Origin: Saccostrea cucullata
Lineage: Eukaryota
Assembly: GCF_032062105.1 (NCBI RefSeq)
Contig: NW_026938938.1
Coordinates: 744,001-808,000, forward strand
Length of the DNA: 64,000 bases
Reading direction: 5' to 3'
Shown: piece by piece, positions 25,601 through 46,600 of the stretch
Layout: each line of letters starts with the position of its first letter
Position numbering within the stretch: position 1 is the stretch's first letter
Program-made: the position numbers

Positions 25601-28600
25601 GGTACTCAATATTATATTGTCATTTCCTAAAGCTTGTAACTTCTAGTGCAAGATATTCTGAGTAATCATGATTTTTATATTTCTTTAACTATAGTGGTTA
25701 AACATACCTGGAACTCTGGAGGCATCACTGGTGTCAGTTACCCCTGTCACTGAAGAAAAGAAGAGAAGGGTTACTTTAAAATTTAAATACAAAATAAAAT
25801 ATTTTTCATAAGGGACCTGAGTATTCCTAAAACCGTCTACCTGATTTATAATGGATGGTTGCCCACGCTCATTACCTGATTTATACCAGGATGGTTTGCC
25901 CACTCTCATTCAATACCTGATTTATAACAGGATGGTTTGCCCACACTCATTTAATACCTGATTTATAACAGGGCAGTTTGCCCACTCTCATTACCTGATT
26001 TATAACAGGGCAGTTTGCCCACCCTCATTACCTGATTAATAACAGGGCAGTTTGCCCACTCTCATTACCTGATTTATAACAGGATGGTTTGCCCACTCTC
26101 ATTTAATTATAACAGGGCGGTTTGCCCATTTTCATTACCTGATTTATAACAGGGCGGTTTGCCCACCCTCATTACCTGATTTATAACAGGGCAGTTTGCC
26201 CACTCTCATTACCTGATTTATAACAGGGCAGTTTGCCCACCCTCATTACCTGATTTATAACAGGATGGTTTGCCCACTCTCATTTAATTATAACAGGGCG
26301 GTTTGCCCATTTTCATTACCTGATTTATAACAGGGCGGTTTGCCCACCCTCATTACCTGATTTATAACAGGGCAATTTGCCCACTCTTATTACCTGATTT
26401 ATAACAGGGTGGTTTGCCCACTCTCATGGTGTTGGGCTTCATGACCCCGATATCATCTACACACCAACACAGAGATCCCTGACACTGCATCTCAGCAAAC
26501 CGTCCGTCGTCCAAACAATCCGGCACAAAGTTACCATTCACCACAGGCGGGACTTTATCAGCTGTGAAAATGTCAATACAGGAACATTAATGACGAAACT
26601 GCTAGCTCAAAATGATACAGTATAATATTCAGCATTAATTTCTAAATGTATCATTCTTTTTGTGATTCAGTTACATATAAATTGCATCTATTGTAAATTA
26701 GTTGTATTTTCCAGAGTTGTTGAAAACTTTTTCAGATAGCCAGTCATTCGGACTGACAAGAAAACAAACTAAGCTGCTCCTCTTTTTTTTTTTGTCAGTC
26801 CGAAATAGTAAGTCGCAAAATGGAAAAAAGCATAACATTTATTCATTTTATAACACATCTATTTAATAAATAATGTTGTTAATAAAACAAAATTCAGTCT
26901 CCATTTCCAAGTACTCTTCCGTTTTCTTTAATTTTGCATTCATAACAATACGAGATACAATTATACCACCACTTTTTGGCAGATGACAATGCTAACTCAG
27001 TACAGTCAATGTAATTTTTTGAAACATTTATACATTTTGGAATTATATTAACCTAGAAAATGGGTCTAAAAATTCTTTGCATTGATAATCTGATAATAAA
27101 GATATCAACACGATCGGAGAAAAAACGAAAATCCTGGACAGTCGGAAATACTAGGTTAAATGCTTTCTCCACCTGTGCTTGAATTCTTTCTGTTGAAATT
27201 TTTCATATTTAGCTCGTCTTTATCTTAAGTTTTTCTTTAATATGTTTTCTACCTAGCTCGGCCCCAGTTGTGAATTTAATAGGTCACGAGAACCATGCTA
27301 GTTTCGCTTTCATTTACAGCCTCGATCTCGTTTAAAGAAAAAATATTACGTAATCGCATATAAGGTACGATAATTAAGATGGGAAATGCACAAAACAAAA
27401 AACTTTAACCAAATAAGGAGCCGGTCATTTGGACCGACATTGATAGCATTTTTACCGGTCATGCGAATTTTAAGCCGGTTTTGCTGGCATGACTGACAGT
27501 TACCCACAACTCTGATTTTCCCCATATCCTTCATGTAAAATAGGTTATAAAAGCTATTTTCTGTAATCACAGGGTATTGATGAACAACCTATTTTATATT
27601 GTTTTAAAGGTAATCTTATTATTCTTGTATACAAATAAAACATAATGGCAATACAGTTAACAGTTTTTAAAAAGTCTAATGACACAATCACCTTATTTAT
27701 TAGGATAAGGATTACTTCTGAGCAAATTCCTAAGTTCATGAGGAAAATAGTATGTCTTTGAGTATTGTGTCATCTGACCTTGAGCAATAACTTCATCAAA
27801 TTAAGAAGAGAGGTTTGACTTACAGATACACTTTGCCTCAGTGTCACTGACAGGTAAACAAATGGTGCCTGCTGCACATCGGATTTTCTGAAATGAAAGT
27901 AAAAAGCATGCATAACTGCTTTCAATTGCTAAAAATCTCAACCTAAGAGTTTTAAATAATAATATTGCCTACATTTGAGTATATTTACATTTTTTATGCT
28001 TGGTCAAAAAACTAGCATTATGTTTTCTTTCAACAGGGAAGAAGAAAGAAATAATTGATGGCCTTTTAAGTTTAATTCCAGTCACATTCAGCAATGTTTG
28101 GCTGAAAATTTAGTAAAAATTAGCTGAATGGTTCTGTACAAAAAGGAAAGTTTATGGGCTGTATTATGTATATATACATACAGACATTCATAATGTACAG
28201 GTCAAAATGTTCATTGAGCCTATTGTTTGAAATAAGAATGAAATATCTTACCTCACATGGAGCAGCCTGCACATCTCTAGAGCCTGTAAGAAATCAGGTT
28301 GACAATACACAAAAGCATTAGAATTTCAGTATCTCAATCATTGATATTAAGCTCTCTTTCTGACCAATTTCAGATCAAACAATTATTGTATTTATGCTCA
28401 TAAATCTTTTAGTTTGTATGTGATTGTTGTGTACATAATAAAGCTTCATTCCTTTAACAGTACATGTATCTTAATTGTTCCATTGACAAGATAATCATTA
28501 TTAATACTTACTACAGGTACTGAGACACTGTGTGAGGGTTAAGAAACGGTTCCTGTTCCCTTCACATCCCCCATAGTAAAACTTCTCACACTTGTTGCTG

Positions 28601-43600: not shown

Positions 43601-46600
43601 GTGTCCTGTAAAAGTTACAATATATATTTTATCAATGTCCTGTAAAGTGTACAAGATATTCTATCTATAGTGTCCTGTAAAGTGTACAAGGCCATTCTAG
43701 TATTATCTACTGACATTTCCTGAACTTTTCATTAATAATAGGAAAATACCAAAGGATTATAAGAAATTGCCAATTTTCAATAATAGTATAGGGAAAATCA
43801 ATTTATATTAAGCTAGTGAACTAAATCTTGCAACATACATGCATTAACAAAGAATATTTGCCTAGATTTCAAGCAACATTTTATATAAGAGTTGTAAATA
43901 ATTGGAAAATATACAGTTATTGAGAAAGCCACTTTTCTTCAAAGTTTTATAATGGATTAATAACAAACCTCCTTTCCCAAAGGATAGCATTTTGGTTCAT
44001 TACCTTAATTTCTGAATTATTTAAGAATATATACATGTACTAAGAAACAAAGAAATTCTTTCAACTTGAAAGTGACAATTTATTTCACAAAATTTTCCTT
44101 TCAATCCCATCACTTTACTTTTTCCTTCTTTATTGGTTTTGGTCATACCTGGCTTGTTAAATGCTTTAGGACAACATGTTCCCTTGTTACAGAATTCTGC
44201 CACAGAGCAGGATTCATCTGAAGCACAGCTTTTTATCTCAGAAGGGTTTCCACCAGGACATTTGGAATCTAAAATCAATATCATATAGATTATTGTGAAG
44301 TGTGCTTAACTCATGCATACATATTAGAAGGTTGTTAAACAAACCTTAAACACTTGAAAAATTACATATTACCAGTACAATTTATTACAATGTTTTAAAT
44401 TTCCAATATGTCTGAATCAAAAAAAAATCCAAACAAACCAAGAATATCACCTTTATTAATTGCTTTAGGACAACATATTCCTTTATTACAGAATTCTGTC
44501 ACAGAGCAGGACTCATCTGAAGCACAGCTCTTTATCTCAACAGGGTTTCCACCAGGACATTTGGAATCTAAAATTATTACAAATGATACATGAATTCCAA
44601 TGATGAAATACTATTCAAAAATTCAAACTGATCTTATAGAGAGTTTTCAGTAGACCCAAATTAACAAGAGTTATTTCCCGTTGGCCGCCATCTTGGTGGT
44701 CAACCTTGTAATTTTCCCTCTTTGTCCTACCAAATATAAGAGGGTGTTTTAACAGAAATATTTTAGGGGAAATCTTTTTGGAATAAAAATTATGAAATAA
44801 AGGAGGCTCTAACAAATATATATTTTTAAGAAAAACAATGCTTACCACCCAACAATTGCCAGTATAAAGAGTTAAAGTTGCAATTGGTTGAATAATGAAG
44901 GAATATGAGCATGTTGACCCCCAATATGGCAGCCAACGGGAAATAACTCTTGTTAATTTGGGTCTACTGAAAACTATCTATTGCTGACCTTAAATATGAT
45001 TAGATATTGAAGTCTTGAGTGAATTAAAAATGTAATGTAAATGAAATAACTGAAAACATAGGTAATCAAAGATTACGAAGCTCACCTTGACGAATGTTAT
45101 CAGTGTAAGTAATGCAAATCTCATATCATATTTTCTTAATATCTAGTATTTATCCCAACAACAATATTCTTGCAAGTTGTGTTTAACCCCTTACAAGGCA
45201 TATACACATTTCTACGCATGTAGCGTGAAAATCATGTATAGTGTAAACAAATATTCACAACTTTGTTTAATACTGCAGATATCAAGGACTTCAAGTTCAT
45301 TGGGATTAATCTGTTCCCAAAACTATAACCTGGTCTCTTGTTTGGAAAATATAGGTCACATTCAGTATCCGAAGCAAGTCTTGTAGTGTCCATCCCTAGA
45401 TGCAAGTTTGGTTCAGGTAGGGCTTATAGTTACTTGGGAATAAAAATATGGGTCAGATCCAGCAACTGGAGCAAGTCTGGTAGTGTCCATCACTAGATAC
45501 ATCATCCATGCAAGTTTGGTTCAGGTAGGGTTTATAGTTACTTGGGAATGAAAATATAGGTCAGATCCAGCATCCGAAGCAAGTCTGGTAGTGTCCATCC
45601 CTAGATGCATCTGAAGCAAGTCTGGTAGTGTCCATCCCTAGATGCATCTGAAGCAAGTCTGGTAGTGTCCATCACTAGATACATCATCCATGCAAGTTTG
45701 GTTCAGGTAGGGTTTATAGTTACAGTAAAACACGGTTATAGCGAAGTCCTTGGGACCTGTGAATTTAATTCGCTATGTCCGTAATTCGTTATATCCGTAT
45801 AACGAATTCGTATAACCATGTATAGCGAATTCGCAATATGCATGTTTTCCTTCAAGTGTTACTATCAAATATGTTAGGGAAACAAATATTACAAAACATA
45901 CCTTCGATTACTAAGGTTTTATTATGAACTGAATTTTATATACAAATGCTGAGAGAAAATAAAGTCAGTTCAATTATTCAAATTTTGAAATCTTTGAAAG
46001 TTCGTTATAAAAGATGTAAAATTCATTATATTTAACCTCAACGGGAATCAAAATCAGTTCGCTATATCCGTAAATTCGTTATATCCGAGTTCATTATAAC
46101 CGTAAAATTTTACAAAGATTTGTTAATAATTTTGCCGGGGACCAAGAAAAACTTCGCTATATCCGTTAATTCGCTATATCCGTGTTCGTACTAAACGTGT
46201 TTTACTGTACTTGGGAATGAAAATATAGGTCAGATCCAGCATCCGAAGCAAGTCTGGTAGTGTCCATCCCTAGATGCATCTGAAGCAAGACTGGTAATGT
46301 CTATCCCTAGATGCATCATCCATGCAAGTTTGGTTCAGGTAGGTCTTATAGTTCCTTGGGAATGAAAATGTAGGTCAGATCCAGCATCTGAAGCAAGTCT
46401 GGTAGTGTCCATCCCTAGATGCATCATCCGTGCAAGTTTGGTTCAGGTAGGTCTTATAGTTCCTTGGGAATGAAAACGTAGGTCAGATCCAGCATCCGAA
46501 GCAAGTCTGGTAGTGTCCATCCCTAGATGCATCATCCATGCAAGTTTGGTTCGGGTAGGTCTTATAGTTCCTTGGGAATGAATATGTAGGTCAGATCCAG

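What the first reader, a model, noticed from the sequence alone, without database searches (positions are those of the whole stretch)
25838..43690. Three independent minisatellites in one gene each amplify a genuine splice junction
Seen: (a) a 37-bp unit equal to the exon end plus donor, ~15 copies; (b) a 77-bp unit equal to acceptor plus exon start, 9 copies; (c) a 36-bp unit equal to the acceptor with the first exon bases, ~50 copies. In each case the terminal unit is the functional junction and the array extends only into the intron. A 20-bp donor duplication also sits at TERT exon 3 (5841-5880). Inference: either a junction-targeted duplication process (splicing- or R-loop-linked slippage), or survivorship of the only tandem duplications an exon can tolerate. 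Either way it creates VNTR-tunable decoy splice sites.
Basis: partly seen in the sequence, partly recalled or inferred. Interest (0 to 1): 0.7.

Follow-up and report, generated by a model that had tools for sequence, protein, structure and literature searches.

The report
Oyster minisatellites that repeat splice junctions
Three tandem-repeat arrays in one oyster gene, and a small duplication in the neighbouring telomerase gene, each copy a real splice site many times into the intron; this kind of repeat is already known from several human genes, so it is a tidy natural example and not a new mechanism.

Summary
The window is oyster DNA. NCBI's Saccostrea cucullata models P0002 (1837 aa, WAP/Kunitz/thyroglobulin-1 protein) and P0007 (TERT) map letter for letter to the minus strand.

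- **Array a:** 16 units of 37 bp. Each unit is the last 34 nt of exon 32 plus GTA.
- **Array b:** 9 units of 77 bp. Each unit is the intron end plus the first 48 nt of exon 27. A 1317-bp transposon splits the array.
- **Array c:** about 52 units of 36 bp. It supplies the acceptor of exon 7 but shares only 2 nt with the exon.
- **TERT exon 3:** carries a 19-bp x2 donor duplication.

The model uses the exon-adjacent copy every time, and five oyster orthologs are gap-free there. Decoy sites score like real ones, and every one tested leads to an early stop.

Minisatellites whose first unit spans an exon-intron border are known from human F7, IFI6, CBS, LMNB2, PDGF and ABCA7 (PMC1557585, PMC5954066). 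The donor arrays are new members of that kind. I found no described acceptor-side case.

Enrichment at junctions depends on the null chosen (P from 0.008 to 0.46). A junction-targeted process is not shown. Splice-site usage and copy-number variation could not be tested here.

The parts
22846..57073 (-). Host gene: 43-exon model of a WAP / Kunitz / thyroglobulin type-1 / lustrin-Cys / PAN protein with a C-terminal membrane helix (NCBI name 'LOW QUALITY PROTEIN: zonadhesin-like', S. cucullata; 'papilin-like' in Ostrea edulis)
   Evidence: P0002 maps 100% exon by exon; 42 of 42 introns are GT-AG; Pfam domains per exon
26394..26561 (-). Exon 32, the C-terminal half of a thyroglobulin type-1 domain, phase 1-1. 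The functional donor GT is at 26393-26392
   Evidence: Pfam PF00086 E=2.1e-12, ending at the last Cys 3 residues before the donor; junction solved; protein conserved and gap-free in 5 oysters
25838..26427 (-). Array a: 16 units of 37 bp (last 34 nt of exon 32 plus GTA). There are 13 decoy CAG|GTA donors; 2 units lost the donor through a deletion. The array has a 5-unit (181 bp) higher-order repeat
   Evidence: lag-5 identity 0.91 against 0.83-0.88 at other lags; mean pairwise identity 0.86
29468..29611 (-). Exon 27, a WAP domain, phase 1-1. The functional acceptor AG is at 29613-29612
   Evidence: Pfam PF00095 E=1.2e-6
29564..29875 (-). Array b, exon-proximal block: units 1-4 counted from the exon, 77 bp each (29 nt intron plus the first 48 nt of exon 27), 94-100% identical to the functional unit
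29875..31191 (.). 1317-bp insertion with perfect 13-nt terminal inverted repeats and a 5-bp target duplication (CTACA). It splits array b
   Evidence: arms 29875-29887 and 31179-31191; flanks read
31191..31555 (-). Array b, distal block: units 5-9, 68-78 bp, 79-91% identical to the functional unit. The outermost unit keeps only 13 nt of the intron part
41566..41691 (-). Exon 7, a WAP domain, phase 1-1. The functional acceptor AG is at 41693-41692
   Evidence: Pfam PF00095 E=4.7e-12
41692..43707 (-). Array c: about 52 units of 36 bp, each ending in CTTTTACAG. The last unit is the functional acceptor region and equals the array consensus. 35 decoy acceptors have PWM scores of 6.5 or more
42973..43126 (.). 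154-bp MITE-like insertion inside array c with 11-nt perfect terminal inverted repeats
   Evidence: sequence read
5870..5920 (-). TERT exon 3 (residues 72-88 of P0007)
5840..5877 (-). 19-bp x2 tandem duplication: the last 8 nt of TERT exon 3 plus 11 nt of intron. The second copy keeps GTAAGA 19 nt downstream

Best explanation
These are ordinary minisatellites that arose in place. Each was seeded by a short tandem duplication that happened to straddle a splice junction. Such a duplication is harmless as long as the copy next to the exon is still the one spliced. The arrays then grew by unequal exchange or slippage of single units and multi-unit blocks.

The exon-adjacent unit stays under purifying selection as part of the coding exon; the other units are intron. 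Splicing takes the first donor in array a and in TERT, and the last acceptor in arrays b and c. Use of any other copy puts a stop codon into the message, which would be expected to go to nonsense-mediated decay.

Shown here: the anatomy, the in-place origin within the window, the age markers, the competence of the decoy motifs, the stop codons, the conserved protein across the junctions, and the lack of array a in three relatives. Inferred: which site is used in vivo, the mechanism of choice (5'-to-3' scanning for donors as in human F7; exon definition for acceptors), and any effect of copy number.
For: Units contain exon sequence: 34 nt in a, 48 nt in b, 8 nt in TERT. The model junctions are the outermost copies.

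The unit motifs occur only inside their own arrays in the 64 kb window: 13 of 13, 9 of 9 and 26 of 26 matches.

Growth by block exchange: there is a 181-bp higher-order repeat in a and recurring 7-unit patterns in c.

The arrays are real and not young. Units have diverged (86% matches in a, 96% and 83% in the two blocks of b, 74% in c), and transposons are inserted in b and c.

Five oyster orthologs are conserved and gap-free across all three junctions.

On a PWM built from this gene's other sites, decoys score like real sites. Decoy donors score 5.1-7.7 (real median 7.2, functional 9.4). Decoy acceptors in b score 8.1-10.3 (functional 10.0). 35 decoy acceptors in c score 6.5-12.1 (functional 11.7; real median 6.8).

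Every decoy gives a stop. In a, the stop at 26364-26362 lies before every decoy donor. In b, 8 of 8 decoys reach a stop within 11-21 codons. In c, 35 of 35 tested reach a stop within 1-3 codons.

Array a is lineage-specific. In 3 of 3 unnamed related records (P0017-P0019, 77-90% identical) the read-through after ...PPCYKS is unrelated sequence, not a second unit.

Precedent: the F7 IVS7 37-bp VNTR and the other human cases, where the most upstream donor is selected and the pseudo-sites stay silent though functional (PMC1557585: abstract, introduction passages and discussion read).
Against: Three large arrays in one gene, all at junctions, is nominally unlikely under random seeding: the product of the three probabilities is 0.003 for the whole gene and 0.015-0.02 for short introns only. 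With the TERT case, 4 of 13 loci against 0.9 expected gives P=0.008. Pure chance plus survivorship is therefore not comfortable under the liberal null.

None of the non-junction in-situ repeats in the gene has grown beyond about 6 copies.

Array b shows a gradient. Identity to the functional unit falls from 0.99 to 0.79-0.85 with distance from the exon. In array c the ten exon-proximal units are more alike (0.94 against about 0.86; Spearman -0.25, P=0.07). This hints that the constrained unit takes part in array turnover, which the simple model does not require.

For acceptors, the local motif does not set the functional copy apart from the decoys. First-AG or intron-definition rules would favour upstream copies. 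Exclusive use of the last acceptor rests on the annotation and on protein conservation, not on RNA data.
Confidence: 0.72

Rival explanations
1. A junction-biased process: splice junctions are preferred seeds for tandem duplication, or arrays anchored on a selected terminal unit expand and persist better than free intronic arrays (for example by conversion from the constrained unit).
For: 4 of 13 in-situ repeat loci span a junction against 0.9 expected (P=0.008). The three largest in-situ arrays of the gene are all at junctions. There is an identity gradient away from the exon in b and a weaker one in c.
Against: P rises to 0.12 with short introns as target space, and to 0.46 if the dispersed arrays are counted. 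The test is post hoc on a window picked for being odd. No extra small junction duplications appear at TRF score 30. Array a shows no gradient. GC is low with a small skew, which gives no sign of R-loop-prone sequence. No mechanism is known to me (recalled).
Confidence: 0.12
2. The arrays are selected regulators. Copy number sets the share of transcripts lost to decoy sites and decay, or the repeated sites recruit splicing factors to help a weak exon.
For: Decoys are motif-competent and all lead to stops. A human precedent exists: length of the ABCA7 intronic VNTR, whose unit begins with a donor, changes splicing (PMC5954066, passages read).
Against: Array a is absent in 3 of 3 related records. 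Units decay freely: 2 of 16 donors are lost in a, and 19 of 52 units in c lack the AG. Transposons sit inside b and c. No expression or population data are available.
Confidence: 0.12
3. Assembly artefact or mis-annotation: the arrays are collapsed or expanded read errors, or the true junctions lie elsewhere.
For: The model is flagged LOW QUALITY, with one 2-nt frame shift in exon 16. Raw reads could not be seen.
Against: The units are diverged with higher-order structure, and transposons with intact inverted repeats sit inside two arrays. Each junction has a unique GT-AG solution. The domains end where Pfam says they should. The orthologs agree. The frame shift is about 4.3 kb from the nearest array (array c).
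Confidence: 0.04

Closest known systems
Human F7 intron 7 minisatellite (37-bp VNTR whose first element spans the exon 7-IVS7 border)
   Same: A tandem array whose first unit is the exon end plus donor, so the authentic donor is followed by near-identical pseudo-donors. The unit length happens to be 37 bp in both. The most upstream site is the one used (PMC1557585: abstract, introduction passages and discussion read).
   Different: The F7 unit holds 4 nt of exon and 33 nt of intron with 5-9 copies. Array a holds 34 nt of exon and 3 nt of intron with 16 copies. The organism here is an oyster, and usage here is known only from a gene model.
Other human junction-spanning minisatellites listed in PMC1557585: IFI6 (6-16) intron 2, CBS intron 13, LMNB2, PDGF intron 4
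   Same: The donor site is reiterated 10-25 times into the intron. Either only the authentic donor is used or also the one or two nearest pseudo-sites (introduction passages read).
   Different: All of these are donor-side, with one array per gene. Here two of the three arrays are acceptor-side, and three arrays sit in one gene.
ABCA7 intron 18 VNTR
   Same: The repeat unit begins with a splice donor, retention of one unit gives a frameshift and a premature stop, and repeat length correlates with splicing outcome (PMC5954066, passages read).
   Different: That is a human disease locus with measured length effects. No such data exist here.
Intron gain by tandem duplication of an AGGT-containing exon segment (PMC3265369, PMC4974935; search listing and abstract starts only)
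   Same: A tandem duplication across or inside an exon creates paired splice signals without changing the mRNA.
   Different: Here the introns pre-exist. They have unique tails, sit at phase-1 domain borders, and relatives show an intron at the same point. The duplication lengthened introns and did not create them.
Dispersed satellite-like arrays of oyster genomes carried by Helentron elements (PMC7492417, search listing and abstract start only)
   Same: Short tandem arrays scattered through oyster genes. The window holds such arrays with 108 and 146-bp units at 2588-4092, 45400-47152, 51695-51992 and 53610-53974.
   Different: Arrays a-c are single-locus in the window and are built from local exon and intron sequence.

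Membership tests
Junction-spanning minisatellite (F7 IVS7 type) | Head-to-tail array of units of about 10-100 bp | tested here: met
   37 bp x16, 77 bp x9, 36 bp x about 52-55. The TERT case has only 2 copies, so it is a duplication and not an array.
Junction-spanning minisatellite (F7 IVS7 type) | The terminal unit spans the exon-intron border, so that the splice site is reiterated in the intron | tested here: met
   Array a has 34 nt of exon plus GTA; b has 48 nt of exon plus at least 13 nt of intron; TERT has 8+11 nt. Array c is borderline: the unit ends at the acceptor and shares 2 nt with the exon.
Junction-spanning minisatellite (F7 IVS7 type) | Pseudo-sites (near-)identical to the authentic site | tested here: met
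   Decoy PWM scores fall within or above the range of the gene's real sites. Array a's authentic donor differs at +6 (GTAATA against GTAATG).
Junction-spanning minisatellite (F7 IVS7 type) | Only the exon-adjacent site is used in normal transcripts | not testable with these tools
   The NCBI model and five gap-free orthologs fit this, and all decoys give stops, but no RNA data were available.
Junction-spanning minisatellite (F7 IVS7 type) | Copy number polymorphic between individuals (VNTR) | not testable with these tools
   Only one assembly was seen. 3 of 3 related unnamed records lack array a, which shows lineage specificity and not polymorphism.
Intron gain by tandem duplication (AGGT model) | The intron is made only of duplicated exon sequence and is absent in relatives | tested here: not met
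   Unique intron tails remain (an estimated 91, 169 and 477 nt once the repeat copies are removed). Relatives read from ...CYKS straight into non-coding-looking sequence at the same point.
Transposon-borne dispersed satellite | The same unit occurs at other loci | tested here: not met
   There were 0 matches outside the arrays in 64 kb. The rest of the genome could not be searched.

The most novel reading that the evidence does not exclude
In this oyster, tandem arrays anchored on a selectively constrained splice-junction unit expand and persist preferentially, because the constrained unit keeps reseeding the array (identity gradient in array b). The resulting 8 to about 35 competent decoy sites divert a copy-number-dependent share of transcripts to decay. 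The acceptor-side arrays would then be a natural test bed for 3' splice-site choice, of the kind that F7 provided for donors.
Probability: 0.1. Interest if true: 0.6.

Novelty: new member of a known kind. Interest (0 to 1): 0.32.

Why it matters
The donor-side cases repeat in a mollusc what is textbook material for human F7, IFI6 and CBS. That shows the class is not a mammalian oddity.

The acceptor-side arrays are the more useful part. An exon preceded by 8 motif-competent copies of its own acceptor (35 in the other array), every one leading to a stop, is a ready-made natural experiment on how a 3' splice site is chosen in an animal with short introns. I found no described counterpart in four literature searches. 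These cover open-access text only, supplements were closed, and older subscription papers may hold one.

For annotation, such arrays are traps for gene predictors and read aligners.

Tried and rejected
- **Pfam for TERT:** I nearly rejected TERT. An exon-wise protein search then confirmed it; only the poorly conserved N-terminal exons lie in the window.
- **Cluster members:** Isoform evidence stayed unchecked.
- **More junction duplications:** TRF at score 30 over the big gene found no further junction-spanning duplication. One 10-bp x2 repeat at 24736-24756 abuts the exon 36 donor, and one lies inside exon 21.
- **Coding arrays rejected:** arrays a-c are not coding, because stops occur in the exon's frame.
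- **Intron gain rejected:** see the membership test.
- **R-loop idea:** no compositional support.
- **Microhomology:** I read the unit borders for microhomology and found nothing clear.
- **Other oyster genomes:** Whether arrays b and c exist in relatives is therefore unchecked.
- **Joined model:** the spliced model was searched exon by exon. The joined coding sequence was not searched, folded or compared.
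Full report
**What the window is**

The 64-kb window has no N and 28-39% GC. One exon's translation (26395-26559, minus strand) is 100% identical to NCBI's 'LOW QUALITY PROTEIN: zonadhesin-like' of the oyster Saccostrea cucullata (P0002, 1837 aa). Orthologs were found in S. echinata, Ostrea edulis, Crassostrea virginica and Magallana gigas. Nothing here was taken for human.

P0002 maps letter for letter to the minus strand from 57073 to 22849. 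Solving each junction for the protein gave one canonical GT-AG solution for 42 of 42 introns. One 2-nt frame shift inside exon 16 explains the 'low quality' flag.

Exons are mostly phase 1-1 modules. By Pfam they include WAP, Kunitz, thyroglobulin type-1, lustrin-Cys and PAN domains. A hydrophobic stretch near the C-terminus looks like a membrane helix (read from the translation). The median intron is about 200 nt.

The spliced model was searched exon by exon. The joined coding sequence was not searched or folded.

**The observation**

TRF finds the three arrays at the stated places.

- **Array a (25838-26427).** It has 16 units. Unit 1 (26427..26391) is the last 34 nt of exon 32, coding MRVGKPPCYKS with the final Cys of the thyroglobulin domain, plus GTA. 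14 of 16 units keep CAG|GTA and two carry a deletion. A 5-unit higher-order repeat is visible: lag-5 identity is 0.91.
- **Array b.** It has 9 units of 68-78 bp, and 9 of 9 have TTGTAG|GAG. The unit is the intron end plus the first 48 nt of exon 27, which includes the first Cys of a WAP domain. Its two blocks (29564-29875 and 31191-31555) are one array. They are split by a 1317-bp element with perfect 13-nt inverted ends and a 5-bp target duplication.
- **Array c (41692-43707).** It tiles into 52 units, 33 of which end in AG, and it holds a 154-bp MITE-like insert. Its last unit equals the array consensus and supplies the acceptor of exon 7. Only GA, and 5 of the first 8 bases, is shared with the exon.
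- **TERT.** The side remark is right. P0007 (S. cucullata TERT) maps to the minus strand with exon 3 at 5920..5870. The 19-bp x2 repeat is the last 8 nt of the exon plus 11 nt of intron.

Unit motifs occur only inside their own arrays in the window: 13, 9 and 26 matches, with 0 expected.

**Is the exon-adjacent copy the real junction?**

The NCBI model uses the first donor in a and in TERT, and the last acceptor in b and c. Five oyster proteins are conserved and gap-free across all three junctions. Pfam domain limits fit the model's exon edges.

The array copies cannot be coding. Reading on from exon 32 meets a stop at 26364-26362, before every decoy donor. 8 of 8 decoy acceptors of b meet a stop within 11-21 codons. 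35 of 35 tested in c meet a stop within 1-3 codons (on contiguous genomic sequence only).

**Are the copies competent decoys?**

I built a rough PWM from this gene's other splice sites, leaving out the three sites in question. Real donors have a median of 7.2 and real acceptors 6.8. Intronic GT and AG have 95th percentiles of 5.8 and 6.3.

- Decoy donors of a score 5.1-7.7; the functional donor scores 9.4.
- Decoy acceptors of b score 8.1-10.3; the functional acceptor scores 10.0.
- 35 decoy acceptors of c score 6.5-12.1; the functional acceptor scores 11.7.

Local motifs therefore do not mark the functional acceptors.

**Age and reality of the arrays**

Three things argue against an assembly artefact: diverged units (86%, 96% and 83%, and 74% matches), higher-order structure, and transposon insertions. 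They also show the arrays are not brand new. Raw reads were not available.

Array a is lineage-specific. Three unnamed related records (P0017-P0019, 77-90% identical over the exon) read from ...PPCYKS into unrelated sequence, not into a second unit.

**More than chance?**

Consider a random duplication of the observed unit size that is tolerated, meaning it is wholly intronic or spans a junction.

- The chance of spanning a junction is 0.11, 0.23 and 0.11 over the whole gene (product 0.003).
- It is 0.20, 0.38 and 0.19 in the compact part of the gene (product 0.015).
- Over both genes, 4 of 13 in-situ repeat loci (TRF score 50 or more) span a junction against 0.9 expected, P=0.008.
- With only short introns as target space, P=0.12.
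- If the dispersed 108 and 146-bp satellite loci are counted too, P=0.46.
- TRF at score 30 added no further junction case.

The test is post hoc on a window chosen for looking odd. There is a hint of enrichment but no proof.

Two details lean towards a role for the constrained unit in array turnover. Identity to the functional unit falls steadily with distance in b (0.99 down to 0.79-0.85). The ten exon-proximal units of c are more alike (0.94 against about 0.86; P=0.07). Array a shows no gradient.

**What it is and how it works**

The best reading is an in-place tandem duplication across a junction. It is tolerated because the exon-side copy still works. It then expands by unequal exchange.

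For donors there is direct experimental precedent. In human F7 intron 7, a 37-bp VNTR whose first element spans the exon border gives 4-8 identical pseudo-donors. These are functional but silent, because the most upstream site is chosen by an oriented scanning-type process. IFI6, CBS, LMNB2 and PDGF are listed as further cases (PMC1557585: abstract, introduction passages and discussion read). In ABCA7 a VNTR unit starts with a donor, and repeat length changes splicing (PMC5954066, passages read).

For the acceptor-side arrays, choice of the last copy is an inference. Exon definition, meaning pairing with the donor 126 or 144 nt downstream, is the likely route. Four searches found no described acceptor-side counterpart. 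These cover open-access text only, and supplements were closed.

**Verdict**

The kind is already known. These are new members in an oyster, with the acceptor-side arrays a mirror form I could not find in print.

A junction-targeted process is neither shown nor needed. The tunable-decoy idea is plausible but untested. Site usage, polymorphism, genome-wide enrichment and the state of relatives' introns for b and c remain unchecked.

Noticed in passing
window 29564-31555 (each unit of array b; e.g. 29611-29597): Every 77-bp unit carries, 15 nt after its acceptor, a donor-like CTG|GTAAGR (PWM 6.1-10.2). The array is therefore a string of nine potential in-frame 15-nt micro-exons (..VISSG..). The same donor-like site sits inside the real exon 27. 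No ortholog shows a repeated VISSG.
   Followed up: partly
window 37172-37039 (exon 16), break near 37120/37117: The NCBI model needs a 2-nt frame shift inside exon 16, which is why it is flagged 'LOW QUALITY'. This exon is a near copy of exon 15 (both code CENGYCCPTRL). It is either an assembly error or a decaying duplicate exon.
   Followed up: partly
window 44149-47739 (exons 3-6) and 49559-49681 (exon 2): Five similar 117-123-nt exons (..KCPGGNP.EIKSCASDE.C..EFCN.G.CCPK..) form a tandem exon-plus-intron duplication series. A satellite-filled insertion lies in the intron between exons 4 and 5.
   Followed up: no
window 2588-4092, 45400-47152, 51695-51992, 53610-53974 (and 52247-52998): Dispersed arrays with 108, 128 and 146-bp units recur in introns of both TERT and the big gene. 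They look like the transposon-borne satellite-like arrays reported for oysters (PMC7492417, listing and abstract start only). None touches an exon border.
   Followed up: no
window 29875-31191 and 42973-43126: Two transposon-like insertions with perfect terminal inverted repeats (13 nt and 11 nt) landed inside arrays b and c. The first has a 5-bp target duplication, CTACA. Families were not identified.
   Followed up: partly
window 19933-21100, plus strand: EGF-like exons (for example ..CKNGGICVGPNECECPPYYTGHQCEK.. and ..DVDECLTGRSSCQQICKNTIGGYECGC..) of another gene lie on the opposite strand, about 1.7 kb beyond the 3' end of the big gene.
   Followed up: no
window 24736-24756: A 10-bp x2 repeat starts at +2 of the intron after exon 36. 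It abuts the donor but does not copy it (TRF score 35).
   Followed up: no
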